Assembly (NCBI GenBank): GCA_964630595.1
Contig: CAZVVT010000001.1
Coordinates: forward strand, 399,383 to 463,382
Reading direction: 5' to 3'
Origin: an uncultured bacterium
Lineage (GTDB): Bacteria > Chlamydiota > Chlamydiia > Chlamydiales > VFKH01
Length of the DNA: 64,000 nt
In this document: piece after piece, positions 16,248 to 53,363 of the stretch
How positions within the stretch are numbered: the first letter of the stretch is position 1
Layout of the letters: the number at the start of each line of letters is the position of its first letter
Translations under genes and position numbers: made by a program
The notes under the pieces: generated by a model
Told to the model about the DNA's origin: nothing
Databases searched by the model: none
The model's input: the letters and a program-made list of their open reading frames with translations, nothing else

Positions 16248-16395
16248 CCCCTCTTAAAACCTGAATTTCTGATTCAAACTTAAAATTTTTCCTCTAGACC
16301 TTTTTCAAACGCATCCGCTATAGAGTGAGGGTAGAACGCAAGGGGCTACCAATGGCTCCGTGCCCAAATCTATTAATCTTGCAAGGAGTCTCCTC

Positions 16396-18135
16396 ATGCA
16401 AATCAATCAACTAGCAAAGAAGTTCGGGATTGCGGCAATCGCATCTTTCGCTCTTTTGCTAACAGCGTGCAACCAGTGCAATGACTGGTCGCAATGCTGC
16501 CCACAACCTGCCACACAATGTTGTCCAACAACGTGCTGTCCGACTACCGCGATGAATGGCGGGGTTGGCGCGCGTGGATTCATGGGTCTGGCTCAAACTA
16601 CTGACGAAGGCGAAGAGGGCAAAACTGTTGGTTTCGCTCGTTCTTTTGGCTTTGCTCAGACACTAAGTGCTAAAGCATCAAGCAACATCGTAGTAGCGCA
16701 AGGTTGCGCTCCCTGCGATCCTTGTGCTCCTGGCAGCAACGCAGTTGCTCGTACACCCTCTAGTGCTTGCCGCACCAATGTTGTGACGATCAACACAGAT
16801 CACGTACGCGTGACAAAGCAATATCCAGCCGGCATGGTGGACTTGAACCAAGAGTTCCCCATTGTTTACACAGTGACTGCTCTGGATAACGCTGAAAACA
16901 TCCAAGTGACAGAGACAATTCCTTCAGGCGTTGTTTATGTACGCGGTGATGTGAACGGCGCTGCTTCTGGCGATAGCGTTGTATGGACCATTGACTCTCT
17001 GTCAAAAGGCCAATCAAAGGTCATCAGAACATGGTTTAAAGCGACTCAAGTAGGGCAAATCTGCGGCTGCACAACAGTGACAGCAACTCCCTGCATCAGC
17101 GCTTGTATCTGTGTTGGTGAGGCATGCATTGAGTGCTCCAAAACAGCTCCTCCAAAAATCAACTGCGATGATTGGTTTGAGTACACAATCACAGTGAAAA
17201 ACACAGGTACAGCTGTAGCCCGCGATGTTGTGGTGACAGAGAACCTGCCTTCTGAGGTAGAACACCCCAGTGGACAGCGCGTACTGCGTTTTAACCTCGG
17301 TGATATTTGCCCCAAAGAGTGCAAACAGTTCAACGTGCGCGTAAAAGCGAAAACACGTTGCATCCATGTCTGCAACACCATCACTACAACCTCCTCGAAC
17401 TGCGAAAGCAGCTCTTGCGAGTGCTGTGTTGATATTTGCAAACAGATCGTTTCGATCCGCAAATCGGGTCCTGCTGAGCAGTTCGTCTGCAAAAACGCAG
17501 ATTACCAGTTGGTGATTCGCAACGAGGGTGATAACCCACTGCACGATGTAGTCGTAACTGACTTCGCGCCTCAAGGCACATGCATCGTCTCTGCTCCAGG
17601 AGCTTCGCTCTCTGGTAACACAGCGACATGGTGCTGCAAGGTACTGAACCCAGGCGAAGAGCGTGTGTTCAATATCCGCCTGACTGCAAGAAATTGCGGC
17701 GTATACTGCAACCGCGCTTCCGTCCGCGCTGCTGACGGCTGCGGTACAGACACCGAACTGTGCACAACCTGGAAAGGTTGCTCCGGCATTACAATGTGCG
17801 TAACAGACTGCCAAGACCCTATCTGTGTTGGTGAGTGCAATACGTACAAAATCGTCGTTGTGAACCAGGGTTCAGTACCCGACACAAACGTGTCGATCGT
17901 GGCGAATTTCAGCCCCGAACTGCTCCCTATCAGCGGCTGTGGTCCTACCTGTGCGACCGTTTCCGGTCAAACAGTGACCTTCAAGCCAATTGCTTCGCTT
18001 CCTGCTAAGCAAACAGCTGAGTTCACTATCCGTGCAAAAGGCGTTTCCTCCGGAGATGCCCGTCTGAAAGTCGACCTGATGGCTGACTTCCTGACAAAGC
18101 CGGTAACCGACGAGGAAAGCACACAGGTCTACTAG
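16396..18135 (+). CDS. omcB: Large cysteine-rich outer-membrane-complex protein (OmcB, 60-kDa CRP type)
   Basis: ATG at 16396 with an aaggag RBS at 16383-16388. The signal/lipobox is FALLLTAC. A CP-rich N-terminus follows (CNQCNDWSQCCPQPATQCCPTTCCP). The rest consists of repeated DUF11-like segments (YTITVKNTGTAVARDVVVTENLP, YQLVIRNEGDNPLHDVVVTDFAP, YKIVVVNQGSVPDTNVSIVANF) with many Cys. Confidence 0.88.
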   Translation: MQINQLAKKFGIAAIASFALLLTACNQCNDWSQCCPQPATQCCPTTCCPTTAMNGGVGARGFMGLAQTTDEGEEGKTVGFARSFGFAQTLSAKASSNIVVAQGCAPCDPCAPGSNAVARTPSSACRTNVVTINTDHVRVTKQYPAGMVDLNQEFPIVYTVTALDNAENIQVTETIPSGVVYVRGDVNGAASGDSVVWTIDSLSKGQSKVIRTWFKATQVGQICGCTTVTATPCISACICVGEACIECSKTAPPKINCDDWFEYTITVKNTGTAVARDVVVTENLPSEVEHPSGQRVLRFNLGDICPKECKQFNVRVKAKTRCIHVCNTITTTSSNCESSSCECCVDICKQIVSIRKSGPAEQFVCKNADYQLVIRNEGDNPLHDVVVTDFAPQGTCIVSAPGASLSGNTATWCCKVLNPGEERVFNIRLTARNCGVYCNRASVRAADGCGTDTELCTTWKGCSGITMCVTDCQDPICVGECNTYKIVVVNQGSVPDTNVSIVANFSPELLPISGCGPTCATVSGQTVTFKPIASLPAKQTAEFTIRAKGVSSGDARLKVDLMADFLTKPVTDEESTQVY

Positions 18136-25960: not shown

Positions 25961-27300
25961 TGCAAACCGCTGCCGCCATTGCTCTCTACTTCACCTTTCT
26001 GCTGATCATCGCTCTCGTGGCATGGAGAAAGCGCTCCTCCAATGATTTTCATTTGGGTGGACGGAATCTAAATTTCTATCTAACTGCTTTTTCCGCGCAC
26101 GCTAGCGACATGAGCGCGTGGCTCATCATGGGTTATCCCGCCGCCGTCGCCATCTCCGGCATCGGCAGCACCTGGACAGCGGTCGGACTCCTCTTCTTCA
26201 TGTATGTCAACTGGCAGTTCATCGCTCCCAAAATCCGCCGCGCCACAGAAGCGCACAACAGCTCCACCCTCTCCTCTTTTTTCGCCAGCCACTTTCAAGC
26301 AAAGGGCATCCGCATCCTTTCGGCCATCATGGCCTTCTTTTTCTTCACGATCTACCTCTCTGCGCAGCTCGTGGGCCTGGGAGAAATCTTCGGCAGCCTC
26401 TTTCACATCCCCTTTTCCTCCGCCATCTCCATCGGCATCGTCATTGCCCTGATCTATCCGCTCATCGGTGGCTATCTCACCCTTGCGTGGACTGATCTCT
26501 TCCAAGGCCTCTTCCTCCTCGCGATGATCATCATGGTGCCTCTCCACCTGCTCGGACAGGGAGCAACACTTTCTTTGCCTTCTTATTCCATCCACTGGAC
26601 GCAGGCGCTCTTTTTGGCCTGTGGATGGGGTCTGGGCTACTTTGGGCAACCTCACATCATCACGAAGTTCATGGGCATCCGCCATGTGCACGAGATGCAC
26701 AAATCGAAATGGGTGGGCATCAGCTGGATGACCCTCGCTCTCGCTGGCGCTACCCTCGTTGGCCTGCTTGGTTACGGCAGCCCCAACCCCGAGATGATCT
26801 TTGCTGACATGGTGCAAAGCCTCTACGCCCCCTTCTTCGCGGCTTTTATCCTCTGCGCCGTCCTCGCGGCCACGATTTCGGTCATGGGCTCTCAAATGCT
26901 TGTGCTCACCTCCAGCCTCACAGAAGACTTCTGGAAGCGATTCGACCCTCGCGCCTCCGACCGCAAACTCCTGCTCGTCTCCCGCCTCGGCATCATCGCC
27001 TTCGCCCTGATCGCCTTCGTTATCGCCTACTACAAGATCTCCTCCATCTACACCCTCGTCTTCTACGCCTGGACCGGCCTGGGCTGCAGCTTCGGCCCCC
27101 TTCTCATCCTCTCCCTCTATAGCAAATCGGTCACCAAAGCCGGCGCCTACTTCGCCATCCTCTTCGGCGGCCTCTTCGCTGCCGTCTGGCCCCTCATCAA
27201 CCACCAGCTCCTCCCCTCTCTCGAAATCCCCGCCATGCTCCCCGGCTTCGCCTTTAGCCTAATCGGAACTCTGCTCGTCTCTCGCCTTTTCAAAAGATGA
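25960..27300 (+). CDS. Sodium:solute symporter family transporter (PutP/PanF-like)
   Basis: 446-aa ORF with ~12-13 hydrophobic segments. The N-terminal segment NDFHLGGRNLNFYLTAFSAHASDMSAWLIMGYPAAV is typical of SSF transporters. Confidence 0.8.
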   Translation: MQTAAAIALYFTFLLIIALVAWRKRSSNDFHLGGRNLNFYLTAFSAHASDMSAWLIMGYPAAVAISGIGSTWTAVGLLFFMYVNWQFIAPKIRRATEAHNSSTLSSFFASHFQAKGIRILSAIMAFFFFTIYLSAQLVGLGEIFGSLFHIPFSSAISIGIVIALIYPLIGGYLTLAWTDLFQGLFLLAMIIMVPLHLLGQGATLSLPSYSIHWTQALFLACGWGLGYFGQPHIITKFMGIRHVHEMHKSKWVGISWMTLALAGATLVGLLGYGSPNPEMIFADMVQSLYAPFFAAFILCAVLAATISVMGSQMLVLTSSLTEDFWKRFDPRASDRKLLLVSRLGIIAFALIAFVIAYYKISSIYTLVFYAWTGLGCSFGPLLILSLYSKSVTKAGAYFAILFGGLFAAVWPLINHQLLPSLEIPAMLPGFAFSLIGTLLVSRLFKR

Positions 27301-28310
27301 AATTTATTGTTCCTCCACCTCCACCATCCTCAGCGCAAAAAACGCTCATTGTTTTTGGAGCTGGGGCGAGCAATGGATCAGAGGATAGCTCTCTAGATCA
27401 ACCCCCTTTAATGAAGGATGTCCTCAGTAAATTCGCTCCTGTATTTCCGAAAACCTGGGGTTTAATTTCCGCAAATCCCACATACCGCGAGATCTTCGAA
27501 GACAACTTCGAAAAAGGAATGAGTCAGCTGCTCAATGATGGTTCTGATTTTGCAATTCAGTGCCACAGAGATTTGGCTCGTGGATTCTTCAACTATATTC
27601 CTAGTTCGAAGAGCTTATACCGAATTTTAGTTAATAAAATAAAAGCAAAGGGCATATCGAACTTTTCTCTCATTTCCCTAAATTATGAACGGTGTTTACC
27701 GATAGCTTTAGCGGAAGAAGGAATCGAGGTCTATGCTTCGATCAATAACAGCTCCTCGTTACAAGTGGCATCCAGCAGCATTTCGAGTGCTTGTGGCTCA
27801 ACTGAGCTACTACTTCCCCACGGCTGCTGTCACCTGTTTGCCGGGCCTATCTTCAATAAAGGAAAAACAACGTTTTCACCAGAAACTTTCCTACGATTTA
27901 GCAAGGGAGGACAACATAAATCTACGTCAACTAATTCTTGGGTCTCTGGAGATATTTCTGGCGAGGGAAACATTTGTTTTGCTCACGATAACTCCTCATT
28001 CCTGACTGAAATCTGCCAAAGAAACCCAGTCATGTCTTATATCACGGGAAACAAAAGCTCCCACGCTGGCCATAGTTTCTTAGATTTCCAGCGCCAGAGA
28101 ATCTTTGAGGTTGCTCAAGATGCAACAAAAATTGTCCTGATCGGTATTAATTATCAAGAGCACGATGACCACATTTGGCTCCCATTTCAGCAATCAAAGA
28201 CTGCGGAAAAATTTCAATTTGGCGGAAAGGTGGTTCCTGGTTTCAAAAAAATCCAAACTTATTTTGATGCTGACGGATACAAAGACGTGCTTAATTGCAT
28301 TTTATCTTGA
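27297..28310 (+). CDS. SIR2_2-like protein (putative NAD-dependent enzyme), AT-rich gene
   Basis: 337-aa ORF with four spaced motifs resembling the SIR2-like (SIR2_2) family: KTLIVFGAGASNGS, LISLNYERCL (TTNYD-like), LLLPHGCCH (KxHG-like) and KIVLIGINYQEHDDHIW (hhFhGYSxxD-like). The ATG overlaps the symporter stop (ATGA). Local G+C is far below the neighbours. Confidence 0.55.
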   Translation: MKFIVPPPPPSSAQKTLIVFGAGASNGSEDSSLDQPPLMKDVLSKFAPVFPKTWGLISANPTYREIFEDNFEKGMSQLLNDGSDFAIQCHRDLARGFFNYIPSSKSLYRILVNKIKAKGISNFSLISLNYERCLPIALAEEGIEVYASINNSSSLQVASSSISSACGSTELLLPHGCCHLFAGPIFNKGKTTFSPETFLRFSKGGQHKSTSTNSWVSGDISGEGNICFAHDNSSFLTEICQRNPVMSYITGNKSSHAGHSFLDFQRQRIFEVAQDATKIVLIGINYQEHDDHIWLPFQQSKTAEKFQFGGKVVPGFKKIQTYFDADGYKDVLNCILS

Positions 28311-28311
28311 G

Positions 28312-29115
28312 CTAGCAAAATGCTTTCTTTCTCTTCAGCACAGTCTTGATGGTGAACTTTCTTGGATCGAGCCCCTCTTTCACTTCGCTCCAAGCCAGCG
28401 GCGTGGAAACTGTAGCTCCGGGCTTAGCACGAACAGAATAAGGGGCGACCACCGTCTGCATGGGGCGGTTTTGGAGAAAGTCGATGTAGACTCTCTTCTG
28501 TCGCTTCTTGGGAAGACGTTCCAGTGAGGTACTATCCGGAAGACGCTCGTGCGCCTCTTGTGCAATTTCTTTCGCAAGGGCTCGTACCTTGTCGTAGCTC
28601 ATCGCTTTTTTTAGCGGCACATAGATGTGCAAGCCGCGCGAACCGGAGGTTTTGCAATAACTGCGCAGCTTCCTCTCTTCGAGAATGGTGTGCAGCACCT
28701 GCGCTGTCTTGACAACAGCACTAAAAGAAATCGCTTCTGGATCAAGATCGAGAATAAGATAGTCCGGCGCTTTCAGTTTTTTTGCTTTGGCGCTAAAAGG
28801 ATGCAGTTCGATGCACCCCAAATTCACCACGTACAATAGTGTGTCGAGGTTGTTGACGACGATGTACTCAATCGTGCGCGCTTCATGCTTTACCTTAACG
28901 CGCTTTACAAAAGAGGGCGGATTCGCCGGGCATTCCTTCTGATAAAAGCTGACCCCTTCCACACCTTCTGGAAAGCGGTGCATCACTAAAGGACGGTCTT
29001 TGAGATGGGGCAAAAGACGCGGAGCAACGGCTTTGTAATACTTCAACAGATCACCCTTCGTGATCTTTTCTTTCTTCCAGTACAGTTTCTGCGTATGCGT
29101 AGGCTGGAATTTCAT
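28312..29115 (-). CDS. LigD polymerase/primase (AEP) domain protein
   Basis: 267-aa ORF. Matching segments are KLYWKKEKITKGDLLKYY..VAPRLLPHLKDRPLVMHRFPEGV..FYQKE and YLILDLDPE (the DxD metal site). The ATG overlaps the ligase stop (ATGA). Confidence 0.85.
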   Translation of the reverse strand: MKFQPTHTQKLYWKKEKITKGDLLKYYKAVAPRLLPHLKDRPLVMHRFPEGVEGVSFYQKECPANPPSFVKRVKVKHEARTIEYIVVNNLDTLLYVVNLGCIELHPFSAKAKKLKAPDYLILDLDPEAISFSAVVKTAQVLHTILEERKLRSYCKTSGSRGLHIYVPLKKAMSYDKVRALAKEIAQEAHERLPDSTSLERLPKKRQKRVYIDFLQNRPMQTVVAPYSVRAKPGATVSTPLAWSEVKEGLDPRKFTIKTVLKRKKAFC

Positions 29116-30038
29116 TTTTTGGCCACTCGTTTGGGTTTTTCGCGCACTACTTTTTTAGGAGGCTTATCGCTCCTCATGCCCTTGAAGACGGGTTGGCGCA
29201 AAATGCCATCATCCGTCCACTCTGCAAAAGCAACCTCACAAACCTTGACTGGCCTGATCCAGGCAACCTTTTCATTGGGATGGGGTTCGTTGAAAAAGGG
29301 ACAGCGCGCTGTACGTAAAGGAGCAAGCTCTTCATAGGCCTCCTTCAGCGAGCTGCGGCTGAACCCGCCTCCCACATGACCCACATAGCGCAGTTTGCCT
29401 CCTTCATAGACACCTACCAAAAGCGCCCCAAGGTAGGAGCGACTCCTGCGCGGCTGCGTAAAACCGCCGATCACTACCTCTTGCCGAAGTGTTGTTTTCA
29501 CCTTGAGCCACTCACGGCTACGCCTCAGAAGATAGTGGCTCTCTCCTCTCTTGGCGATCATCCCTTCCAGACCCTTATGAAGAGCCTTCTTGAAAAATGC
29601 CTTTCCTTTTCCCGCCACATGATCGCTGTATTTCACGTGTGGCATAGAGGCTGTCTTGAGCAGCGTGTGCAGAATCTTTTTGCGCTCCAGCAGCGGCTTG
29701 CTGCGCAAGTTCTTGCCGTTGAGAGAGAGAATGTCGAAGACGTAATAGTAAGGTGTTCCCTTCCTCGTACGCTGATAATTCTGCAGCAGCTGGAACTTTG
29801 AGCGACCCTGTCGATCTAAAATCACCATCTCGCCATCGAGAAAGCATCGCGCCCTCAGCCTTTCCAATTCCTGCACGATCGAAGGAAAATGTTCTGTATA
29901 GGACTTAGTACCACGCGAAAGAAGCTGCACCCCCACTCCCTTCTTTGCCAATGTGCGAAACCCATCCCACTTCGTCTCAAAAACCCAATTCCTATCATCG
30001 AAAGGCTCATCCACAAGGGTGGCCAACATGACCTTCAT
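29112..30038 (-). CDS. ligD: ATP-dependent DNA ligase (LigD ligase domain as a separate ORF)
   Basis: The track ORF 29112..30065 starts at a GTG. I prefer the ATG at 30038 (MKVMLATLVDEP), which overlaps the upstream stop as ATGA. The adenylation motif I is present (VFETKWDGFR, KxDG), plus EGMIAKR and an OB-fold C-terminus. Confidence 0.88.
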   Translation of the reverse strand: MKVMLATLVDEPFDDRNWVFETKWDGFRTLAKKGVGVQLLSRGTKSYTEHFPSIVQELERLRARCFLDGEMVILDRQGRSKFQLLQNYQRTRKGTPYYYVFDILSLNGKNLRSKPLLERKKILHTLLKTASMPHVKYSDHVAGKGKAFFKKALHKGLEGMIAKRGESHYLLRRSREWLKVKTTLRQEVVIGGFTQPRRSRSYLGALLVGVYEGGKLRYVGHVGGGFSRSSLKEAYEELAPLRTARCPFFNEPHPNEKVAWIRPVKVCEVAFAEWTDDGILRQPVFKGMRSDKPPKKVVREKPKRVAKK

Positions 30039-30421
30039 GTTTCCCTCGTCTTCATCAGCAGCCACATCTTTTTGCCTTTAAAACGGATCAGATCAAAGTT
30101 CCCCTTCAACCTCTTGCCCTGCAGCCGAATCTTGATGTGCCCCTTCTTCATCTGCTGCGCCAAACTTCCCTCACGCACGGTATAGCGACCCCGGTCCCAT
30201 ATCTCCACCCGCCCCGCCCCATACTCGCCCTTGGGAATCACCCCCTCAAACTTCCCATACGAGAGCGCATGGTCCTCCACCTGAATCGCCAGCCTCTTCT
30301 CATGCAACTTAGCTACCGGCCGCTTCGGTACCGCCCAACTTAGCAGCACACCCCCATGCTCCAAGCGAAAGTCATAATGCAGATGGCTAGCGTAGTGTTT
30401 TTGAATGACGAAGAGAGGCAT
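30035..30421 (-). CDS. LigD 3'-phosphoesterase domain protein
   Basis: 128-aa ORF. The sequence FVIQKHYASHLHYDFRLEHGGVLLSWAVPK....IQVEDHALSYGKFEGVIPKGEYGAG.VEIWDRGRY is the conserved LigD-PE core with its His/Asp metal ligands. Confidence 0.85.
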   Translation of the reverse strand: MPLFVIQKHYASHLHYDFRLEHGGVLLSWAVPKRPVAKLHEKRLAIQVEDHALSYGKFEGVIPKGEYGAGRVEIWDRGRYTVREGSLAQQMKKGHIKIRLQGKRLKGNFDLIRFKGKKMWLLMKTRET

Positions 30422-30465: not shown

Positions 30466-31332
30466 TTAAGCTCTTGGGTGGGCCTTGTCGTAGACTTGCC
30501 TCTTCAGCTTGGTGGAGACGTGGGTGTAGATGACGGTGGCGGCGAGGCTTGTGTGGCCGAGGAGGGTTTGGATGGATTTGAGGTCCATCCCGTTTTCGAG
30601 CCAGTGGGTGGCGACGGAGTGACGCAAGGTGTGAGGCGTGACGCGGCCGGCGATGCCGCTTGTGCGAAGGTAGCGCAGAAATGTGCGGTCGAGGGAGCGG
30701 GAGGAGAGACGAGTGCCGTGGCGATTGAGAAAAGTGGCGGGGTTTTTCGGACGCTCTTTGTGGTGGAGATAGCGAGAGAGCCAGTCGGCGGCGATGGAGG
30801 TGATGGGGACAAGGCGCTCTTTGCGCCCTTTGCCTCGCAGAAGCACCGAGAGGCCTTTGAGATCGAGGTCTTCGTTGTTCAGACCCACCAACTCGCTGTT
30901 GCGTAAGCCACTGCTGTAGAGCAACTCGAGAATCGCGCGGTCGCGTAGGCCAAGAAGCGTATCGGTGCGCGGCTGCTGAAAGAGCAGAAGGACTTGCTCA
31001 AAGGTGAGAAACTGCGGAATGCGCTGCTCTTGCTTGGGTCGCTCAATCTCCAACATCGGGTTGTGATCCACCCATTGAGCGGTCAGGGCGTAGGCGAAGA
31101 AGGTGCGCAGGGCGGAGACGCGGCGCGCTTGCGTGCGCTTGGAGCTGCCCTTTTCGGCAATGCCGGCGATGAAAGTGCGCAGGAGTTTGCGGTCGACATC
31201 GCGCAAAGTGAGTTCACCGAGAAATTCTTGGAAGCGCTGCAGGTCGAGTTGGTAATTGCGTATGGTGTGCGGCGAAAGATTGCGCTCCGCATCGAGATGT
31301 TTTAGGTAGGCAGTGATTTTTTCTCGAACCAT
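30466..31332 (-). CDS. xerC: Tyrosine recombinase XerC/XerD family
   Basis: 288-aa ORF with the N-terminal SAM-like domain (LSPHTIRNYQLDLQRFQEFL) and the catalytic R..HxxR..Y set (ELLYSSGLRNSE, PHTLRHSVATHWLENG, LLGHTSLAATVIYTHV). The start lies 31 nt inside the 3' end of the upstream MFS gene. Confidence 0.85.
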   Translation of the reverse strand: MVREKITAYLKHLDAERNLSPHTIRNYQLDLQRFQEFLGELTLRDVDRKLLRTFIAGIAEKGSSKRTQARRVSALRTFFAYALTAQWVDHNPMLEIERPKQEQRIPQFLTFEQVLLLFQQPRTDTLLGLRDRAILELLYSSGLRNSELVGLNNEDLDLKGLSVLLRGKGRKERLVPITSIAADWLSRYLHHKERPKNPATFLNRHGTRLSSRSLDRTFLRYLRTSGIAGRVTPHTLRHSVATHWLENGMDLKSIQTLLGHTSLAATVIYTHVSTKLKRQVYDKAHPRA

Positions 31333-32885
31333 ACAGTCTTGATGATGATGTAGCTCAATATAACAGCAATGGCGACAACAACCCAGCCCATTGCAAAGTA
31401 GGCGTCGTTGGTAGCGCTGAGGGTGGATTGGTGGATGAGGTTTTGGGCGACGCTGAGGTGAGAGAGGGTTTCAGCGGTGGGGGCATTGATCCCTAAGTCT
31501 TGGAAGCGCTCTTGGAGGGTGGTGGTGACGCTTTGGAAGGTGGTGCTGTAGGGAAGGACGTTCGCGCTGTAGACTTGCGTGTGGTAGGCCTGGCGGTAGA
31601 CGGCGATGAGACTGATGATCGAGGCACCAGAGGCGCCGCCCATTTGGCGACAGAAGGTGACCAGCATAGAACCGGGAGGAATGTCTTCTTTGGGAATGTC
31701 GATGAGAGCCAGGGCGGTGCCAGGACCCAGGGCGAGGCCGGTGCCCAGGGCGCGGATCATAAAAAGGGAGGCCCACTGCCATTGATCGCTTTGAATGGTA
31801 AGGGTCATTTGAGCAAAGCAGCTGATGGCCATGATCACAAGGCCGATAAGGGTGAGAATGCGCACATTGATCCACTCGGTGAGAAATCCAACGGTAGATC
31901 CCACGATGCCCAGCACCACTCCATAACCGGCAAAAAGGAGGGCGATGCGCCACTTTTCGTAGCCGAGGATGTGCTCAAAAAGGCCCGGCATGCCCGTGGC
32001 TGTGCCAAACAACAGTGCACCGTTGACGGCAAGGGCTATGCAACCAATCCAAAAATGACGAGAACGAAAGAGACGAATCATCACGGCGGGGTTTTGTGCT
32101 CTCAGCTCACGACGCACCATCAAGATAAGAGAAATAGCGCCAACGATTAAACAGCTGCGGATGAAGGTAGAACTCCACCCCAGAGTGTTCCAAAGGGCTT
32201 TTACGTTGGTGATGATCATGAGCCAACAAACCAGAAAACTCACGAAGAAGAAATAGCCTAAGTGGTCAAACATCGGCATTTCAGGATGAGCCTCTGTCTC
32301 TGGCTGGAAAAGCCATGTGACTATAAGACAGGGAATTCCTAAAAAAACGTTGATCCAGTACAGCCACTGCCAAGCAAGATACTGCCCCACATAGCCGCCG
32401 AAGAGAAACCCCGCTACGCTTCCCATACCAAAACCAATGCCCATGTAGATGGAGAGAGCCAGTGCCATGCGTTCTTTGGGAAAGACACGCTGGATGATCG
32501 TCAGCGAAATGGGAAAGATGATGCCCCCTCCACACCCCTCAATCACACGAAAGGTGATCAATGTGGCAAAATTAGGCGCTAGCGCTGCACAGATCGACGC
32601 AACAATAAAGATCGACAACCCTAAGAAAAAAGCAAACTTGTATCCGAAACGCTCCGCCAACCAACCCGAAATAGGCAAACAGGTTCCCACAGCCGCCAAA
32701 AAGCCTGTAGAGAGCCAGATCAAACCCGTTTGGTCGATCATCAATTCGCCTTGGATGTTGCTCGCCGCAAGAGAACTTGAAAGCGATGAGACAATGGCCA
32801 ATAAGGTCACCAAACTGATGTTGAGCAGAATCAACCAGGGAAAAACCGGATGACTCTGGTCGATCAATGGTTTGCGCCAGATCAT
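31302..32885 (-). CDS. MFS efflux transporter, DHA2/EmrB family (14 TMS)
   Basis: 527-aa ORF with ~14 hydrophobic segments. It contains the typical WLAERFGYKFAFFLGLSIFIVASICAALAP segment. Confidence 0.82.
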   Translation of the reverse strand: MIWRKPLIDQSHPVFPWLILLNISLVTLLAIVSSLSSSLAASNIQGELMIDQTGLIWLSTGFLAAVGTCLPISGWLAERFGYKFAFFLGLSIFIVASICAALAPNFATLITFRVIEGCGGGIIFPISLTIIQRVFPKERMALALSIYMGIGFGMGSVAGFLFGGYVGQYLAWQWLYWINVFLGIPCLIVTWLFQPETEAHPEMPMFDHLGYFFFVSFLVCWLMIITNVKALWNTLGWSSTFIRSCLIVGAISLILMVRRELRAQNPAVMIRLFRSRHFWIGCIALAVNGALLFGTATGMPGLFEHILGYEKWRIALLFAGYGVVLGIVGSTVGFLTEWINVRILTLIGLVIMAISCFAQMTLTIQSDQWQWASLFMIRALGTGLALGPGTALALIDIPKEDIPPGSMLVTFCRQMGGASGASIISLIAVYRQAYHTQVYSANVLPYSTTFQSVTTTLQERFQDLGINAPTAETLSHLSVAQNLIHQSTLSATNDAYFAMGWVVVAIAVILSYIIIKTVWFEKKSLPT

Positions 32886-33793
32886 TATCGTGTGTAGATG
32901 CGGACTTCCGCCGACATCCCCGGAAAGAGATAAAGCGACTCTAGATCATCGGGCAGATTGGTTTTGTCAATCGAGATCTTAATCGGAATGCGCTGCTCTA
33001 CTTTTGTGTAATTGCCCGTGGCATTGTCGGGAGGAATCAGAGAAAACTGACTTGCAGCTGAACCTTGAATGGCAAAGACCGTCCCCTCAAAAGTAGCTCC
33101 AGGATAAGCGTCGACCCATATTTTTACCGGATCGCCAATCGATACTCCCGCTAAGTCGGTCTCTTGCAAAATAGCCAGCACCCAAACATCTTCCAGATCG
33201 TAAAGAGAAAAAATCGATTGCCCAGGACGAATGACATTGCCCGTCCACTGCCAACGCTTTGTGATCTGCCCACTCATCGGAGCGTGAATGTAGGTATGAC
33301 GCAATTGGCTCTCTAGGTAGGCCGTATGCTTGCGATTCACTTCGTACTCCGCCTGCGCAACTTCTAAAGAGGCCTTTGCCATTTGTAGATTTTTGCTGGC
33401 ATGGTCCCACTGCTGAGCGGTAATAATCTGCTCGGAAAATCCCTTTTTCGCCCGCTCATAGTCATCATAGACCTTCGCTAAGTGCGCCTCTGCATACCGA
33501 ATCTGCGCCTCTTGCAAACTCACCTGCGCTTTGGATTGCTCAAACTGCGGTTCGATGAGCGTACGGTCAAGCTCCGCAAGCAGCTCACCTTCTTCCACCA
33601 TATCCCCTTCATCGACATAAAGAGCTGTAATGCGCAATGTCTCCAAATCATTGCTCACCAAGGTTTCAAAGCCCATCACCTGCGCATCGTTCGTATAGAC
33701 TGTCTCTCTAGTAAAGCTGTAGAGCCACCAGCCCACCGCGCCGCAGATGAGCGCTAAAACAAGGACAACAAGGACTGTTCTTCTATTTTCCAT
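32885..33793 (-). CDS. HlyD/EmrA-family membrane fusion protein
   Basis: 302-aa ORF with a single N-terminal TM, coiled-coil hairpin region (QFEQSKAQVSLQEAQIRYAEAHL...LEVAQAEYEVN) and a beta-barrel C-terminus (YTKVEQRIPIKISI). Confidence 0.82.
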   Translation of the reverse strand: MENRRTVLVVLVLALICGAVGWWLYSFTRETVYTNDAQVMGFETLVSNDLETLRITALYVDEGDMVEEGELLAELDRTLIEPQFEQSKAQVSLQEAQIRYAEAHLAKVYDDYERAKKGFSEQIITAQQWDHASKNLQMAKASLEVAQAEYEVNRKHTAYLESQLRHTYIHAPMSGQITKRWQWTGNVIRPGQSIFSLYDLEDVWVLAILQETDLAGVSIGDPVKIWVDAYPGATFEGTVFAIQGSAASQFSLIPPDNATGNYTKVEQRIPIKISIDKTNLPDDLESLYLFPGMSAEVRIYTR

Positions 33794-35171
33794 CTTTTAA
33801 GCTCCCCACAGCATGCTGTAGGCCCAAATAGGAGGTATAAAGGTTATAGGCGGCCTGGTCACGTAAAAGTTTTGCTCGCACACGCTCATCCACAGCGATT
33901 TCATAGTCGAAAATGTTGATGTACCCCACATCCAGCTGGTCATGCGCTTGCTGCACCAACTCATCGGCCAGAGCAACGTTTGTCTTGGCATAGGCCAATT
34001 GCGCAATCGACTCCTCGATATCCCAGATTTGCTTGCGCACCTCTTGATGCACAAGTTGTTGCATATTAAGGTAGTTATAACGCTCTGCCCGCCACTGCGC
34101 CTCTGCTTGACGAATCGATAATTCGCGCCCAAAACTATCAAAAAGCAGCCACTTCACATCGAGCCCGACACTCCACTGAAAACTCATGTCTTCAATGTTT
34201 TTACTGGGATAAAGGGCCCACAAAGCAGGCATCCCCCCATACTCCATCGTCAGATCCGCTGTAGGCAAATAAGTCCCCTGCCTATCGTGGACCTTCTCCG
34301 CCGCTATAGTCATGAGCAGCCCCGCTTGAAATAGGTCAGGACGCTGCTGGTTTGACAGCGCTTCCCAATAGGTAATCTCCTGCGAGTGAAAAAAGGAGGT
34401 ATGCGCATCGCGAATGAGCGTAGGAGCCGGTAGCGCAGCCACCTTCGTCTCCGCATCTTCAAGCTTCGAGATCATCGGGACCGGTATGGCCTGGCAAAGG
34501 CTTTCCACCTCCACACTGTGACAAGCGGGATCCATGCCAATCACTTGCGCCAAAGTGTCGCGGTCGGTCTTCAAATCACGAAGAGCTTGGTAATAAAGCG
34601 CTGTTGCATTCGCTAGAGCGACCTTGCTCTGGTTCACCTGGAAAATGATGGCCTCTCCAATAGAGAGCCTGCCCTCCATCTGCTTGAGCAAATTCGATAA
34701 AAGCTCAATGCGCTCCGCTTGCGTAGCCATCACTAACTTATCTAAAACAACTTTGTAATAAGCGCTTTTTACTCGATAAGTTAAATCGTTAATTAGAGCG
34801 CAATAAATTAAATTCAATTGCTGTTTCTGCAGTTTTTGCAGAACTACGTTGTAGTATTTGCCGCTCGAAAATAAAGCTTGCGTCAAGGTCAGCTGAGTGA
34901 GGTAGCCCACCGTCGAATCCTGCAGCGGCTTTTGCTCAAACTGACTCTTCGTGACCTGCGACTCCGCTACCAACTGCGGCAGCCACTTCGTGTAGGACTC
35001 CAAAACCCCCAGTTCTGCCTTGTAGACCAACTCTCTTGTCTTGAGGACCTGTTTGTTGCAGCGCATGGCCATCGCCATCGCCTCTTCGGGGCTGTGCAGC
35101 ACGCGTGTGTCGTTTGCAAAAAGAAGGAGCGTATGAGAGACTAGAACTGTCATAAAAAGAGGGTATCTCAT
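33783..35171 (-). CDS. TolC-like outer membrane efflux protein
   Basis: 462-aa ORF with a signal peptide and two OEP-type repeats with long helical segments. It is first in the tolC-emrA-emrB arrangement. Confidence 0.75.
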   Translation of the reverse strand: MRYPLFMTVLVSHTLLLFANDTRVLHSPEEAMAMAMRCNKQVLKTRELVYKAELGVLESYTKWLPQLVAESQVTKSQFEQKPLQDSTVGYLTQLTLTQALFSSGKYYNVVLQKLQKQQLNLIYCALINDLTYRVKSAYYKVVLDKLVMATQAERIELLSNLLKQMEGRLSIGEAIIFQVNQSKVALANATALYYQALRDLKTDRDTLAQVIGMDPACHSVEVESLCQAIPVPMISKLEDAETKVAALPAPTLIRDAHTSFFHSQEITYWEALSNQQRPDLFQAGLLMTIAAEKVHDRQGTYLPTADLTMEYGGMPALWALYPSKNIEDMSFQWSVGLDVKWLLFDSFGRELSIRQAEAQWRAERYNYLNMQQLVHQEVRKQIWDIEESIAQLAYAKTNVALADELVQQAHDQLDVGYINIFDYEIAVDERVRAKLLRDQAAYNLYTSYLGLQHAVGSLKDGK

Positions 35172-35176
35172 ATCTA

Positions 35177-35797
35177 ATGAACACTAAATTAGGTGGGTTA
35201 AAAACGAAAGAATTAACTCGCTCAACCCTCATTGTATTTTCCACTGAATTGGAGGCCAAAGCCACCATCGATTGCCTCGGTGCAAAGGGGCGAGGGCACC
35301 TGCGCTGGTTTCCCGGCGGAGCGGTGATGATCTGCGGCATGGGCTCCATCAACGCAGCCGCCCGCATCCTGGAAGTGGGCCACTGTTTCGACCAAATTTG
35401 GAATATCGGTATTGCAGGAGCTTTGAAACCTCTGCAAGGAATTCATCCTGTAGGGCGCATCGAAAAGCTCAAAAGCCTGCCAGCAACGACAAGCGCTCAT
35501 AGCCATCAGTTCTTCGACAAACTTCACCCCGCACAGCACATCGGCGAGGGGCTAACGCTTGTCACCAGCGATTTCCCCATTTTTGACGAGACCCTGAAGT
35601 CCACTTTGTCCCATGATCTGGTCGACATGGAGGGCTGGGGCATTGCCTATGCCGCTTCGCTTTTACATAAACCTCTGAAGATGTGGAAAATGCCCTCCGA
35701 CTCTGCCGGAGAAAACGACCAGCACGCCCTTCACGCAAACCTTCAGGCGTGTGCTTTTACCATCGCGGATTTTGTGGAGAAACAGATCCATGCATAG
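35177..35797 (+). CDS. PNP_UDP_1-family nucleosidase (MTA/SAH nucleosidase or futalosine hydrolase-like)
   Basis: 206-aa ORF with ICGMGSINAAA, NIGIAGAL and VDMEGWGIAYAA, matching the MtnN/MqnB-type fold signatures. Substrate cannot be assigned. Confidence 0.65.
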   Translation: MNTKLGGLKTKELTRSTLIVFSTELEAKATIDCLGAKGRGHLRWFPGGAVMICGMGSINAAARILEVGHCFDQIWNIGIAGALKPLQGIHPVGRIEKLKSLPATTSAHSHQFFDKLHPAQHIGEGLTLVTSDFPIFDETLKSTLSHDLVDMEGWGIAYAASLLHKPLKMWKMPSDSAGENDQHALHANLQACAFTIADFVEKQIHA

Positions 35798-42199: not shown

Positions 42200-42232
42200 G
42201 GGTCTCTGGAGAAATCCAGAGACCCTTTTTTT
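42200..42232. terminator. Hairpin terminator after dnaK (also faces the convergent gene)
   Basis: Stem gggtctctgga (42200-42210) / tccagagaccc (42215-42225), loop gaaa, then ttttttt. A T-rich run precedes it, so it can function on the opposite strand. Confidence 0.85.
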
Positions 42233-43103
42233 ATTTCTCGATCACAGCAATCGAGATCACTCCATCATCAAAGGATTGCTCCGGAACAAAGGCCTTTGCC
42301 ACGAAACCTGCTTCACGATAGGTCTCAGATATTTGCTTTGCAATGCCTTGCAGCGCTTCCAAGCTCCACCTTTTCCCCGCATAAGTATTTGCTAAACACT
42401 CTAGCTGTTTGGTGGGAAGAATGGTGGCCCCTACTACTTTAAACCGACGCACATTCACCGACGCGGTCATGTCGCGATCATCTATGTCCATGGTAGCAAC
42501 CGTGCGCAGAGGGCGCTTTCCACGTACAGGCACCGTCGCTGGAACCACAGGAGAGGAGGGTGTTGCGGGGATAATGGCTTGATGAGATGCAACGTGTATC
42601 ATTTTGCCGGGTTCAGGCAAGCGCTCTTCTGTGCGCAAATCGAAAACAACGGTTTGTTGCTGGGGCAAGCTGCTTTCTTGACATGCCAAAAGAAAGCTTC
42701 GGCTCTTTTCTTCCGCAAAGACCAACTCCAGCGCATCGGGGGCGACGCAATCCTCGCCATTGTTGCAGCCCGCCAGCGTCAAGGCAATCGGGTCCGCATA
42801 GGAGGTGTCTTGAGCCAAAGCGATTTCCTCATCTGCAGGATCATTGAAAAAAGCTGCGTGAGAAAGCGGCGTCTGCACCTTTTCAGCGACCTGCGCAAAA
42901 AGAGATGTCGACTCCTCGTTTTGAGGCAGCAAGGCTTCTGTATGTTCCTCTAGAGCAAGAGCGATGACATCGGGAGTTGTTTGCTCAACTGCGGAAACTA
43001 GACCAGAGTGCGGTGCTGCATGATCATCGAGCACCGACAACAGTTTATCTTCCAGATCGGCAGCGCACAGTACACAGGGAAGCGCCCATAAAATCCATTT
43101 CAT
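42231..43103 (-). CDS. Secreted hypothetical protein ending in an orphan ShlB/TpsB-type POTRA domain
   Basis: 290-aa ORF with a signal peptide (MKWILWALPCVLCAADL) and an acidic middle. The last ~75 aa are VNVRRFKVVGATILPTKQLECLANTYAGKRWSLEALQGIAKQISETYREAGFVAKAFVPEQSFDDGVISIAVIEK, which match the POTRA_2 pattern. The ORF then stops. Confidence 0.65.
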   Translation of the reverse strand: MKWILWALPCVLCAADLEDKLLSVLDDHAAPHSGLVSAVEQTTPDVIALALEEHTEALLPQNEESTSLFAQVAEKVQTPLSHAAFFNDPADEEIALAQDTSYADPIALTLAGCNNGEDCVAPDALELVFAEEKSRSFLLACQESSLPQQQTVVFDLRTEERLPEPGKMIHVASHQAIIPATPSSPVVPATVPVRGKRPLRTVATMDIDDRDMTASVNVRRFKVVGATILPTKQLECLANTYAGKRWSLEALQGIAKQISETYREAGFVAKAFVPEQSFDDGVISIAVIEK

Positions 43104-44227
43104 ACTGACTCCACAACAACAATAACGACAATGCCATATTGCAGTGACTGTGTGGGCACATACACCTTAACGGCAGGCAAACTAGCCTTCACATAAGCAA
43201 GTTTGATTTGGTAGGCAATATCTTCTAGTTCATCAATCGTGAGCTTTTGTTTTGCATAGCGATTCGCGATTCTGTTCAGTTGCTCGGTTGAAAGAAGAGA
43301 GGCTCCTACAACGGTGACGCAGTTTACCTGCACACATGCTCCTGGACCCCTTTCGTCTACCAAACGAGGCATAGAGCGAATCGGCGGCGCGTACACTTTC
43401 GCAGCGGGCGAGCAAGAGCCTTGCGGCTGCTTCTCGCAACAAGGTGATGGACACTGGCAAGGCTGCGGGCAACGGCACGGCTGTGGGCAGCAGGGTTGTG
43501 GTTGCACGTCGCAGCAGGGCGATGGACACTGGCAAGGTGGCGGACAGCGGCAGGGCTGCGGGCAACAAACGGAGGGCTGCACAACAGGTATGACAGGACA
43601 ACAGGGCTCTGTGGGCTGCGGCGCGGGCTGCGTAGAGGGACACCACTGCACATTGCAGAAGGGTTCAGGAAGTGGGTAATCAGGCTCTGGGTAGGGACCG
43701 GTGTCCTCACAGCATTGGTCCTGCCAGGTATTGATGGTCTCCGGAGTAATCACCAGGCCAGGCTCAGGTTCTTGAGGGGGAAAAACTGTCTCAGTAGGAG
43801 CCGGTGCTGGTGCTGGCGTAGGCGCAACAACTGCTGGAGGAGTCGGTGTTGGGGTAGGCGCAACAACTGCTGGAGGAGCCGGTGCTGGAACAACTGGCTG
43901 CGGGGCGGGAAGCGGCAGGAGAGTAGAGGGAGTGGGGTTGAGTGGAATGGGATCTTCGAAGGTGCTTTCTACCACCGGAGTGATCCAAAAACCTCCTCCA
44001 AGAGAGGTCGAAGTAGGCTCCGCCTGGCCCGGCTCATCCTGGCTAATGTCGATCCCGTAGCCCTCTTCTTCATCCGAAGTATCGGGCGTTACAGGCAGAT
44101 CATAGCCCTCTTCATCGTCGTCCAGCTCAACAGATTCGCTTTCGTCCGGAGGCGAAGAGTTCTCCGCCCGCAAGGGAGCAGAGGCAAAAAGGGTAAGCAA
44201 ACCTAAAGCCAACAGCACTTGGATCAT
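43100..44227 (-). CDS. Secreted Cys/Pro-rich repeat protein ending in an orphan ShlB/TpsB-type POTRA domain
   Basis: 375-aa ORF with a signal peptide (MIQVLLALGLLTLFASAPLRAEN), an acidic region and PPAVVAPTP repeats. Two 25-aa CCPQPCRCPxPCQCPSPCC repeats follow. The C-terminal segment VQVNCVTVVGASLLSTEQLNRIANRYAKQKLTIDELEDIAYQIKLAYVKASLPAVKVYVPTQSLQYGIVVIVVVESV is paralogous to the end of ORF 42231..43103. The stop overlaps the next start (ATGA). Confidence 0.65.
   Translation of the reverse strand: MIQVLLALGLLTLFASAPLRAENSSPPDESESVELDDDEEGYDLPVTPDTSDEEEGYGIDISQDEPGQAEPTSTSLGGGFWITPVVESTFEDPIPLNPTPSTLLPLPAPQPVVPAPAPPAVVAPTPTPTPPAVVAPTPAPAPAPTETVFPPQEPEPGLVITPETINTWQDQCCEDTGPYPEPDYPLPEPFCNVQWCPSTQPAPQPTEPCCPVIPVVQPSVCCPQPCRCPPPCQCPSPCCDVQPQPCCPQPCRCPQPCQCPSPCCEKQPQGSCSPAAKVYAPPIRSMPRLVDERGPGACVQVNCVTVVGASLLSTEQLNRIANRYAKQKLTIDELEDIAYQIKLAYVKASLPAVKVYVPTQSLQYGIVVIVVVESV
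43418..43567 (-). repeat. Tandem 2 x 75-nt coding repeat (25-aa CCPQPCRCP(P/Q)PCQCPSPCC module)
   Basis: Hand alignment of 43418-43492 against 43493-43567 gives 58/75 identical nt. The peptides are CCPQPCRCPPPCQCPSPCCDVQPQP and CCPQPCRCPQPCQCPSPCCEKQPQG. Confidence 0.85.
43818..43878 (-). repeat. 36-nt-period coding repeat (PPAVVAPTP x2)
   Basis: The 25-mer gtaggcgcaacaactgctggaggag occurs at 43818-43842 and again at 43854-43878. Confidence 0.8.
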
Positions 44228-51630: not shown

Positions 51631-51687
51631 TTTGAGGGCCGAATTTGACCCAAATTCCCCTTCGGCTGTAATCTATTCTCTTTAAAT

Positions 51688-51722
51688 GTGTCCGACTCTT
51701 AAGGGTCGGACACTTCTTTTTT
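51688..51722 (+). terminator. Rho-independent terminator
   Basis: Stem gtgtccgac (51688-51696) / gtcggacac (51705-51713), followed by ttctttttt. Confidence 0.8.
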
Positions 51723-51742
51723 CACAAGGAACCAAAAACCCC

Positions 51743-53287: not shown

Positions 53288-53314
53288 CTAATAATTTAGT
53301 TTAATGTCTTGACA

Positions 53315-53351
53315 CCCCCATTCTTGGTAACGAGAATGGGGGTTTCTTTTT
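53315..53351 (+). terminator. Rho-independent terminator between the two NTT genes
   Basis: Stem cccccattct (53315-53324) / agaatggggg (53333-53342), followed by tttcttttt. Confidence 0.8.
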
Positions 53352-53363
53352 GGGAACAAAACG

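What the first reader, a model, noticed from the sequence alone, without database searches (positions are those of the whole stretch)
28312..30421. LigD split into three translationally coupled ORFs (PE, ligase, polymerase) with no Ku in the window
All three LigD modules are present as separate ORFs in the order phosphoesterase (128 aa), ATP-dependent ligase (KxDG motif) and AEP polymerase/primase. This is the same order as the domains of single-chain Pseudomonas-type LigD. The two junctions are ATGA start/stop overlaps located exactly at domain boundaries. That argues for genuine separate polypeptides rather than random frameshift decay. NHEJ normally needs Ku, yet no Ku-like ORF occurs anywhere in these 64 kb. 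An end-joining or end-healing kit is unexpected in an obligate intracellular lineage. It sits back to back with the SIR2-like gene and directly downstream of xerC.
Basis: partly seen in the sequence, partly recalled or inferred. Interest (0 to 1): 0.65.

Follow-up and report, generated by a model that had tools for sequence, protein, structure and literature searches.

The report
Split three-gene LigD repair operon
An environmental chlamydia encodes the three activities of the DNA-repair enzyme LigD (end-trimming phosphoesterase, ligase, repair polymerase) as three intact, overlapping genes; this split layout is real but already well known, and whether the end-binding partner Ku is missing from the genome could not be tested.

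Summary
On the minus strand lie PE (30421..30035, 128 aa), a LigD-type ATP ligase (30038..29112, 308 aa) and an AEP polymerase (29115..28312, 267 aa). They are joined by two ATGA start/stop overlaps. Every catalytic motif I checked is intact, and no Ku occurs in any frame of the 64 kb. The genes are not a frameshift artefact. Two independent assemblies are 100% identical over the region, a 65%-identical relative has the same three ORFs, and the breaks replace the 20-80 aa linkers of fused LigDs.

Split Lig/Pol/PE operons are described in the literature (Methanocella paludicola; "nonconventional NHEJ"), and nearly all of the 120 closest Pol homologues are stand-alone proteins. Ku|Lig|Pol operons are common in chlamydial MAGs, so NHEJ genes are not unexpected there. 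About one fifth of LigD-Pol loci have no Ku within 10 kb, so a Ku-free window says little about the genome.

The window and its nearest relatives do form a small PE|Lig|Pol subclade with no Ku nearby. This leaves a Ku-independent repair role open (about 0.3). Verdict: new member of a known kind, low interest.

The parts
30035..30421 (-). Stand-alone 'minimized' LigD-type 3'-phosphoesterase (PE), 128 aa
   Evidence: PF13298 matches 1-107/107 with E 6e-42, and TIGR02777 scores 177 bits against a cutoff of 144. [quoted passage not shown] The active-site motifs QKHxxxxLHYDFRLE and VEDHxLxY are conserved: H9, H15, D17, R19, E49, H51, Y55 correspond to Pae H42, H48, D50, R52, E82, H84, Y88. The protein lacks the N-peptide, as does the 117-aa CkoPE (PMC3082917).
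29112..30038 (-). Stand-alone LigD-type ATP-dependent DNA ligase (nucleotidyltransferase + OB domains), 308 aa
   Evidence: PF01068 plus PF04679, and TIGR02779 at 309 bits against a cutoff of 227.75. The best PDB match is the M. tuberculosis LigD ligase domain 1vs0, E 2e-47. Motif I is K23 in KWDG. Motifs III (LDGE), IIIa (FDIL), IV (EGMIAK), V (WLKVK) and VI (LRQPVFKGMRSDK) are all present. Public gene calls use the ATG at 30038, giving 308 aa.
28312..29115 (-). Stand-alone LigD-type AEP primase-polymerase (Pol), 267 aa
   Evidence: PF21686 at 312 bits and TIGR02778 at 274 bits against a cutoff of 214.7. PDB matches rank as M. paludicola NHEJ Pol 5dmu (171 bits), then M. smegmatis Prim-PolC 5op0/6sa0 (156), then Pae LigD Pol 2fao (127), then Mtb PolDom 2iru (122). 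The catalytic residues D123 and D125 (DLD) and D212 (YIDF), and the SGSRGLH motif, align with Pae and Mtb.
30035..30038 (-). ATGA overlap: PE stop TGA / ligase start ATG
   Evidence: Read directly from the sequence. A GAGG Shine-Dalgarno-like motif ends 5 nt upstream of the ATG. The junction corresponds to the PE-LIG linker of fused LigDs.
29112..29115 (-). ATGA overlap: ligase stop TGA / Pol start ATG
   Evidence: Read directly from the sequence. The same Lig|Pol ATGA junction occurs in the chlamydial-type relatives L042 and L043.

Best explanation
This is a functional, translationally coupled three-gene operon. It encodes the three LigD activities as separate polypeptides, in the same order (PE, ligase, polymerase) as the domains of Pseudomonas/Bacteroidota-type single-chain LigD. 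It belongs to the known class of split ('nonconventional', archaeo-prokaryotic NHEJ-type) LigD systems.

Inferred mechanism, from the characterised homologues:
- The AEP polymerase docks on the 5'-phosphate of a break or gap and fills in, preferentially with ribonucleotides.
- The Mn-dependent PE trims 3'-ribonucleotides and 3'-phosphates back to a ligatable 3'-OH. As a 'minimized' PE without the N-peptide, it probably has strong phosphodiesterase and weaker monoesterase activity.
- The ligase seals the nick through the adenylated K23.

The ATGA overlaps give coupled translation (the expected consequence, roughly equimolar synthesis, is inferred). In a chlamydia the likely use is repair in the non-replicating, single-chromosome extracellular stage. 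This would parallel spores and stationary-phase mycobacteria, and it is inference only.

Gene identity, integrity and separateness are shown. The activities, the partners and the involvement of Ku are inferred.
For: - Domain and family scores are above the curated cutoffs for all three proteins.
- Catalytic residues are conserved against solved Pae, Mtb and archaeal structures.
- The trio region is 100% identical, with no gaps, in Logan assemblies of SRR12808459 and SRR12808457. The same three proteins are called in public records, including an NCBI contig of 644,759 nt.
- The nearest long relative, L041 (59-65% aa identity), has the same PE|Lig|Pol order as three ORFs, with junction overlaps of different length.
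- Lig|Pol is split in L042, L043, L128, L129 and L130.
- 111 of the 120 closest Pol homologues carry only Pol-domain Pfam families (105 of them are 258-312 aa).
- The pieces align to fused LigDs of 812-935 aa with the 20-80 aa linkers missing.
- GC and GC3 of the trio match the genome, so it is not a recent import.
- The literature describes split operons and active stand-alone proteins: PMC4797286, PMC3082917, PMC7719229.
Against: No enzymatic or expression data exist for this locus. Ku, which the characterised systems need for double-strand break joining, is absent from the window and could not be looked for in the rest of the genome. The ligase lacks an N-terminal DNA-binding domain, so how it finds its substrate without a partner is open. 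The only promoter-like site found lies far upstream at 35259..35231, so the transcription unit is undefined.
Confidence: 0.85

Rival explanations
1. Ku-independent module. In this chlamydial sublineage the PE/Lig/Pol trio works without any Ku. It would act as a single-strand break, gap or excision-repair finishing kit, analogous to mycobacterial LigC/Prim-PolC, or as a Ku-less end joiner. This overlaps with the best explanation and differs only on Ku.
For: - No Ku lies in the 64 kb window, and none within 10 kb of the trio in L041.
- The window, P0002 and L041 form a subclade apart from the Ku|Lig|Pol group in a quick NJ tree.
- None of the 120 best chlamydial-type Ku proteins lies on a 644,759-nt contig. 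The only one with the same 'ncbi,lgn' source signature comes from another sample.
- Ku appears dispensable in relatives. L128 has Lig|Pol with no Ku, whereas the syntenic L129 has Ku. In L130 Ku is split over two frames.
- Pol scores higher against Prim-PolC, a Ku-independent BER polymerase (PMC5663958), than against the Pae or Mtb LigD Pol domains.
Against: - Only about 64 kb of a genome probably larger than 1 Mb was examined.
- 22-25% of ordinary Ku-containing systems keep Ku more than 10 kb away (PMC7719229).
- 90% of published 'LigD-only' genomes lack POL and PE, so a full PE+LIG+POL set usually travels with Ku (PMC7719229).
- The ligase is LigD-type, not LigC-type: NF006078 scores 136 bits against a cutoff of 296.
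- The NJ tree has no support values.
Confidence: 0.3
2. Decaying or mis-assembled single-chain LigD. On this reading the two junctions are frameshifts, either sequencing errors or pseudogenisation, in an originally fused PE-Lig-Pol gene.
For: The domain order is the same as in fused LigDs of Bacteroidota, which are 47-53% identical.
Against: - Two assemblies from different runs are identical across the region, with no gaps.
- Each ORF has its own ATG exactly at the start of its domain, and the linker sequence of fused forms is absent rather than frameshifted.
- The split is conserved at 60-65% identity in several relatives, with differing junction overlaps.
- All catalytic motifs are intact.
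Confidence: 0.03
3. Cargo of a mobile or defence island. On this reading the trio is functionally tied to the adjacent tyrosine recombinase and the SIR2-like gene.
For: A XerC/D-like recombinase lies 44 nt upstream. The tail-to-tail neighbour has a SIR2 fold like the defence SIR2-HerA protein and a foreign GC of 42%.
Against: - The GC of the trio matches the genome.
- The recombinase scores as a housekeeping-type XerC/XerD and sits at the end of an efflux operon.
- Neither neighbour is conserved next to the trio in L041 or in the other relatives.
- PE and the ligase have no PADLOC hit. Pol has only a weak AEP-domain similarity to DRT UG10.
- No tRNA or repeats flank the region.
Confidence: 0.04

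Closest known systems
Methanocella paludicola AP-NHEJ Pol-Lig-PE operon (structures 5dmu, 5dmp)
   Same: Lig, Pol and PE are separate proteins expressed from one operon. These are the best PDB sequence matches for the window's Pol (171 bits) and PE (128 bits). The source paper states that such split operons occur in many organisms (PMC4797286).
   Different: The host is an archaeon. Its PE is full length (198 aa, with the N-peptide; PMC3082917), against 128 aa here. That organism does have a Ku. Ku status is unknown here.
Single-chain LigD of Pseudomonas aeruginosa / Bacteroidota type (PE-Lig-Pol)
   Same: The domain order and the catalytic residues are the same. The trio is 47-54% identical to fused metagenomic and Bacteroidota LigDs.
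   Different: Here there are three polypeptides without the 20-80 aa linkers. The PE lacks the N-peptide. Ku is usually adjacent in the fused loci.
Chlamydial-type Ku|Lig|Pol operons (L042, L043 Rhabdochlamydiaceae, L129)
   Same: These are the closest clade with taxonomic names, with Lig and Pol about 60% identical. They show the same Lig|Pol split, with the same ATGA junction in L042 and L043.
   Different: They have Ku where the window has PE, and they lack a PE gene in the operon.
Mycobacterial LigC / Prim-PolC excision-repair complex
   Same: A stand-alone AEP polymerase is encoded next to a stand-alone ATP-dependent ligase, and the complex acts without Ku on gaps (PMC5663958). Prim-PolC is the second-best PDB match for Pol.
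   Different: The window's ligase scores as LigD-type (TIGR02779 met) and not LigC-type (NF006078 below cutoff). The LigC operon has no PE.
'Minimized' archaeal stand-alone PEs (CkoPE, 117 aa; M. boonei, 128 aa)
   Same: The size is the same and the N- and C-peptides are missing in both. The metal ligands sit at the same positions, His9 and His15 (PMC3082917).
   Different: Those PE genes were reported as not clustered with other repair genes. Here PE is translationally coupled to the ligase and Pol.

Membership tests
LigD 3'-phosphoesterase superfamily (PF13298 / TIGR02777) | Profile match above the curated cutoff over the whole beta-barrel core | tested here: met
   PF13298 scores 142.5 bits against 31.1 and covers 1-107/107. 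TIGR02777 scores 177.2 bits against 144.
LigD 3'-phosphoesterase superfamily (PF13298 / TIGR02777) | Mn and phosphate ligands (Pae H42, H48, D50, R52, H84, Y88) | tested here: met
   H9, H15, D17, R19, H51 and Y55 are conserved in the alignments to 3n9b, 5dmp and 3p43. Residue numbering is taken from PMC3082917 and from my knowledge of the Shuman laboratory papers.
LigD 3'-phosphoesterase superfamily (PF13298 / TIGR02777) | Mn-dependent 3'-ribonucleoside resection and 3'-phosphatase activity | not testable with these tools
   This needs biochemistry.
NHEJ/LigD-type ATP-dependent DNA ligase (TIGR02779) | Equivalog-domain profile above the cutoff; NTase plus OB domains and no N-terminal DNA-binding domain | tested here: met
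   TIGR02779 scores 309.4 bits against 227.75 and covers 4-298. PF01068 and PF04679 both match.
NHEJ/LigD-type ATP-dependent DNA ligase (TIGR02779) | Nucleotidyltransferase motifs I, III, IIIa, IV, V and VI, with the motif I lysine | tested here: met
   K23 lies in KWDG, and LDGE, FDIL, EGMIAK, WLKVK and RQPVFKGMRSDK are present. The protein aligns to Mtb LigD 1vs0.
LigD primase-polymerase / AEP (PF21686 / TIGR02778) | Profile above the cutoff, plus the catalytic Asp triad and the SGxxGxH motif | tested here: met
   PF21686 scores 311.8 bits and TIGR02778 scores 274 bits against 214.7. D123, D125, D212 and SGSRGLH align to Pae 2fao and Mtb 2iru.
Single-chain multifunctional LigD (TIGR02776 / NF004628) | LIG, POL and, where present, PE on one polypeptide | tested here: not met
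   There are three ORFs in different frames. Each piece scores below the full-length cutoffs: 281 and 291 bits against 373.2 (TIGR02776), and 181-307 bits against 895 (NF004628).
Complete bacterial NHEJ system (Ku + LigD activities) | Ku (PF02735) encoded next to the LigD genes | tested here: not met
   No Ku is found in 64 kb in six frames, with best E 2.8, or above 1 with the improved HMM.
Complete bacterial NHEJ system (Ku + LigD activities) | Ku encoded anywhere in the genome | not testable with these tools
   The rest of the 644,759-nt contig and of the assembly could not be retrieved. The only indirect evidence is that no top-120 chlamydial-type Ku lies on a contig of that length.
LigC / Prim-PolC excision-repair pair | LigC-type ligase (NF006078 equivalog) | tested here: not met
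   NF006078 scores 136 bits against a cutoff of 296, whereas the LigD-type model is met.

The most novel reading that the evidence does not exclude
A sublineage of environmental Chlamydiota (this genome, L041, P0002) may have replaced Ku with PE in its LigD operon. It would then run a Ku-independent PE/Lig/Pol pathway, either for ribonucleotide-based gap and nick repair or for Ku-less end joining. That would make it a natural system for asking what LigD-type enzymes do without Ku in an obligate intracellular bacterium.
Probability: 0.3. Interest if true: 0.45.

Novelty: new member of a known kind. Interest (0 to 1): 0.2.

Why it matters
As it stands, the locus adds one more example to a well-documented class, the split LigD operons. 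It also confirms that environmental chlamydiae, unlike the reduced Chlamydiaceae, keep LigD-type repair genes. It would matter more if the genome truly lacks Ku. A conserved, complete PE+Lig+Pol set without Ku is uncommon, since 90% of published 'LigD-only' genomes lack POL and PE (PMC7719229). Such a set would point to a Ku-independent role for these enzymes. A plausible setting is the non-dividing extracellular stage, when nucleotide pools favour ribonucleotides.

Tried and rejected
1. The genome-contig scan with the Pol protein chose query-specific peptides. It returned only distant relatives (33-49% identity, mostly Bacillota), not the source genome or chlamydial genomes. It was useful only for harvesting Ku sequences and architectures.

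2. I tried to obtain the NCBI record of the 644,759-nt contig, or more flanking DNA, through exact-protein look-ups. Three window ORFs were not on record, probably because my start codons differ from the gene calls. DnaK returned only a third Logan contig. Genome-wide Ku status therefore remains untested.

3. I followed up the one Ku hit with the same source signature as the window proteins (P0188). It belongs to another sample and shows a Ku|PE|Lig-Pol architecture.

4. The frameshift or pseudogene reading is rejected.

5. A mobile or defence island link through xerC and the SIR2-like gene is rejected, because neither is conserved in relatives and the GC of the trio is native.

6. A single-sequence AlphaFold model of the 337-aa neighbour was useless (pLDDT 33). 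It was redone with an alignment.

7. The promoter and terminator scan gave fewer sites than shuffled controls and is not informative.

8. The PNAS 2013 M. paludicola paper was not available. My recollection that its Ku gene lies far from the Pol-Lig-PE operon is therefore unverified and is not used as evidence.
Full report
**Observation.** Three consecutive minus-strand ORFs occupy the stated interval.
- PE runs 30421..30035 (128 aa).
- The ligase runs 30038..29112 (308 aa from the ATG). A longer reading from GTG 30065 exists, but public gene calls use the ATG.
- Pol runs 29115..28312 (267 aa).

The + strand reads 'tcat' at 30035-30038 and at 29112-29115, so both junctions are ATGA stop/start overlaps. 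A GAGG motif ends 5 nt upstream of the ligase ATG.

Profile searches place the three proteins in the three LigD modules, all above the curated thresholds.
- PE: PF13298 over its full length (E 6e-42) and TIGR02777 (177 bits against 144).
- Ligase: PF01068 plus PF04679 and TIGR02779 (309 bits against 227.75).
- Pol: PF21686 (312 bits) and TIGR02778 (274 bits against 214.7).

ATGA overlaps are the usual operon packing in this window. At least six other same-strand pairs overlap by 4 nt.

**Integrity.** Alignments to solved structures show every catalytic residue I checked to be in place.
- PE has H9, H15, D17, R19, E49, H51 and Y55. These match P. aeruginosa H42, H48, D50, R52, E82, H84 and Y88.
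- The ligase has the motif I lysine K23 (KWDG) and motifs III to VI, aligned to M. tuberculosis LigD 1vs0.
- Pol has D123 and D125, D212 and SGSRGLH, aligned to Pae 2fao and Mtb 2iru.

The PE is of the 'minimized' kind. It lacks the N-peptide, as do the 117-128 aa archaeal PEs. CkoPE has its metal histidines at the same positions 9 and 15, and it is a good 3'-phosphodiesterase but a weak 3'-monoesterase (PMC3082917). The same is a reasonable prediction here.

**Not an artefact or pseudogene.**
- The 2.4 kb around the trio is 100% identical, without gaps, in Logan assemblies of two different runs, SRR12808459 and SRR12808457. The same three proteins are on record from an NCBI contig of 644,759 nt.
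- The closest relative with a long contig, L041 (PE 59%, Lig 59%, Pol 65% identical), has the same three ORFs in the same order, with junction overlaps of 25 and 14 nt instead of 4 and 4.
- Against fused LigDs of 812-935 aa, the three proteins align as blocks separated by 20-80 aa of linker that is simply absent here.
- The GC of the trio (50-54%, GC3 58-70%) matches the genome (52.7%), so it is resident DNA.

**Organism.** The window carries several chlamydial hallmarks.
- Two tandem TLC/NTT nucleotide transporters lie at 51686-54830.
- An ABC-3 permease fused to an iron-dependent repressor domain lies at 48254-49549. From my own knowledge, this is the YtgC-YtgR arrangement known from Chlamydia.
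- A DUF11 protein at 16360-18135 has a weak Chlam_OMP6 match.

The DnaK is at most 84% identical to any other sequence. Its named neighbours, at 77-78% identity, are mostly Chlamydiota, Parachlamydiales and Chlamydiales MAGs.

**How common is the split?** Of the 120 best Pol homologues, 111 carry only Pol-domain Pfam families (105 of them are 258-312 aa). I surveyed 38 GTDB loci, 80 metagenome loci and nine context look-ups. Every arrangement occurs:
- fused PE-Lig-Pol;
- Ku|PE|Lig-Pol;
- Ku|PE-Lig|Pol;
- Ku|Lig|Pol;
- Lig|Ku|Pol;
- Ku|Pol;
- PE|Lig|Pol.

[quoted passage not shown] Methanocella paludicola is the biochemically and structurally characterised example (PMC4797286). Its Pol (5dmu) and PE (5dmp) are the best PDB matches to the window proteins. 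A survey of about 6,000 genomes files such layouts under 'nonconventional NHEJ' (PMC7719229).

**NHEJ genes in chlamydiae.** These are not a surprise either.
- Ku|Lig|Pol operons about 60% identical to the window's genes occur in a Rhabdochlamydiaceae MAG (L043) and in L042, L129 and L130.
- Ku proteins are annotated in 'Chlamydiales bacterium' MAGs.
- Two contigs of 2.0 and 2.3 Mb appear to carry both a chlamydia-like DnaK and a Ku. This is inferred from matching contig lengths.
- Ku of Parachlamydia acanthamoebae is discussed in PMC7719229 and PMC11936186.

**Ku.** No Ku is encoded in the window. A Ku HMM, positive control 1.7e-79, finds nothing better than E 2.8 in any frame, and nothing at E<=1 after chlamydial Ku sequences were added.

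This says little about the genome. Of 50 Pol loci with at least 8 kb on both sides, 39 have Ku within about 10 kb and 11 do not. Four of those 11 carry PE, LIG and POL. The published figure is 75% of conventional systems with Ku within 10 kb (PMC7719229).

I could not retrieve the rest of the genome. The indirect evidence is weak.
- None of the 120 best chlamydial-type Ku proteins sits on a 644,759-nt contig. The only one with the window's source signature comes from another sample.
- The window, P0002 and L041 form a subclade in a quick NJ tree without support values, next to the Ku|Lig|Pol group.
- Within that Ku|Lig|Pol group, L128 has lost Ku relative to the syntenic L129. In L130 Ku is split over two frames.

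Against a Ku-less genome, 90% of 'LigD-only' genomes lack POL and PE (PMC7719229), so a complete set usually accompanies Ku. I put a truly Ku-independent system at about 0.3.

**Mechanism.** Shown: three intact, separately initiated and translationally coupled genes for a 3'-end-healing phosphoesterase, a LigD-type ligase and an AEP polymerase.

Inferred from homologues (PMC4797286, PMC3082917, PMC5663958):
- Pol binds the 5'-phosphate at a break or gap and fills in, preferring rNTPs.
- PE resects 3'-ribonucleotides and 3'-phosphates to give a ligatable end.
- The ligase seals the nick.

With Ku this is NHEJ. Without Ku it would resemble the LigC/Prim-PolC gap-repair pathway, although the ligase here is LigD-type and not LigC-type. 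A role in the non-replicating extracellular stage is speculation by analogy with spores and stationary-phase mycobacteria.

**Context.** The trio ends a co-directional string: OEP, HlyD-like protein, MFS transporter, XerC/D-like recombinase, PE, Lig, Pol. The single promoter-like site lies at 35259..35231. Neither the recombinase nor the tail-to-tail 337-aa gene is conserved beside the trio in relatives.

The 337-aa protein has no direct Pfam, NCBIfam or PADLOC hit. It does have about 500 homologues, a few of which touch PF13289 SIR2_2 or AbiH. An alignment-based AlphaFold model (pLDDT 85.8) matches the SIR2 subunit of the E. coli SIR2-HerA defence complex (E 8e-8) and sirtuins. Its GC is 42%, so it looks acquired. 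The 'SIR2-like' label is right, but nothing links the gene to the trio.

**Verdict.** This is a new member of a known kind. The one open and mildly interesting point is whether this chlamydial sublineage truly lacks Ku.

Noticed in passing
window 27297-28310 (+): A 337-aa ORF lies tail to tail with Pol. Its GC is 42% (GC3 40%) against about 52% for the genome. It has no direct Pfam, NCBIfam or PADLOC hit but about 500 homologues, with an invariant GAGAS motif, E72, Y130, H175-G176 and K253. An AlphaFold model built with an alignment (pLDDT 85.8) matches the SIR2 subunit of the E. coli SIR2-HerA anti-phage complex (E 8e-8, TM about 0.5) and sirtuins. No HerA or other partner gene is adjacent. 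Its start overlaps the stop of a sodium:solute symporter.
   Followed up: yes
L128 versus L129 (loci around P0045 and P0066); L130 8333-9146: Two syntenic relatives differ only in Ku: L129 has Ku|Lig|Pol, and L128 has Lig|Pol with no Ku within 10 kb. In L130 the Ku reading frame is split in two, by a frameshift or an assembly error, next to intact Lig|Pol. This suggests recurrent loss of Ku with retention of Lig and Pol in this clade.
   Followed up: partly
window 51686-53287 and 53364-54830 (+): Two tandem TLC-type ATP/ADP (nucleotide) transporters score 765 and 680 bits. They are a hallmark of energy-parasitic intracellular bacteria.
   Followed up: no
window 48254-49549 (-): An ABC-3 metal permease is fused to an iron-dependent repressor C-terminal domain, the YtgC-YtgR-like fusion known from Chlamydia. 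The public gene call is shorter (391 aa) than the longest ORF (431 aa).
   Followed up: no
window 42231-43103 and 43100-44227 (-): Two adjacent ORFs of 290 and 375 aa overlap by 4 nt. Each carries only a C-terminal ShlB-type POTRA_2 domain and has no detected beta-barrel. This is an odd pair of POTRA-only paralogues.
   Followed up: no
window 16360-18135 (+): A 591-aa protein has three DUF11 repeats and a sub-threshold match to the Chlamydia cysteine-rich outer membrane protein 6 (OmcB) family (29 bits against a cutoff of 34).
   Followed up: no
window 30466-35259 (-): The trio is the tail of a seven-gene co-directional string: OEP, HlyD-like protein, MFS transporter, XerC/D-like recombinase, PE, Lig, Pol. 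The MFS and recombinase ORFs overlap by 31 nt. The only sigma-70-like site found on this strand lies at 35259..35231.
   Followed up: partly
L041 5826-6719: In the closest relative that has the trio, an RNase HII gene and an SMC_N/AAA_23 ATPase gene lie 2-4 kb upstream of PE|Lig|Pol. RNase HII could be relevant to ribonucleotide-containing repair patches, or its position may be coincidence.
   Followed up: no
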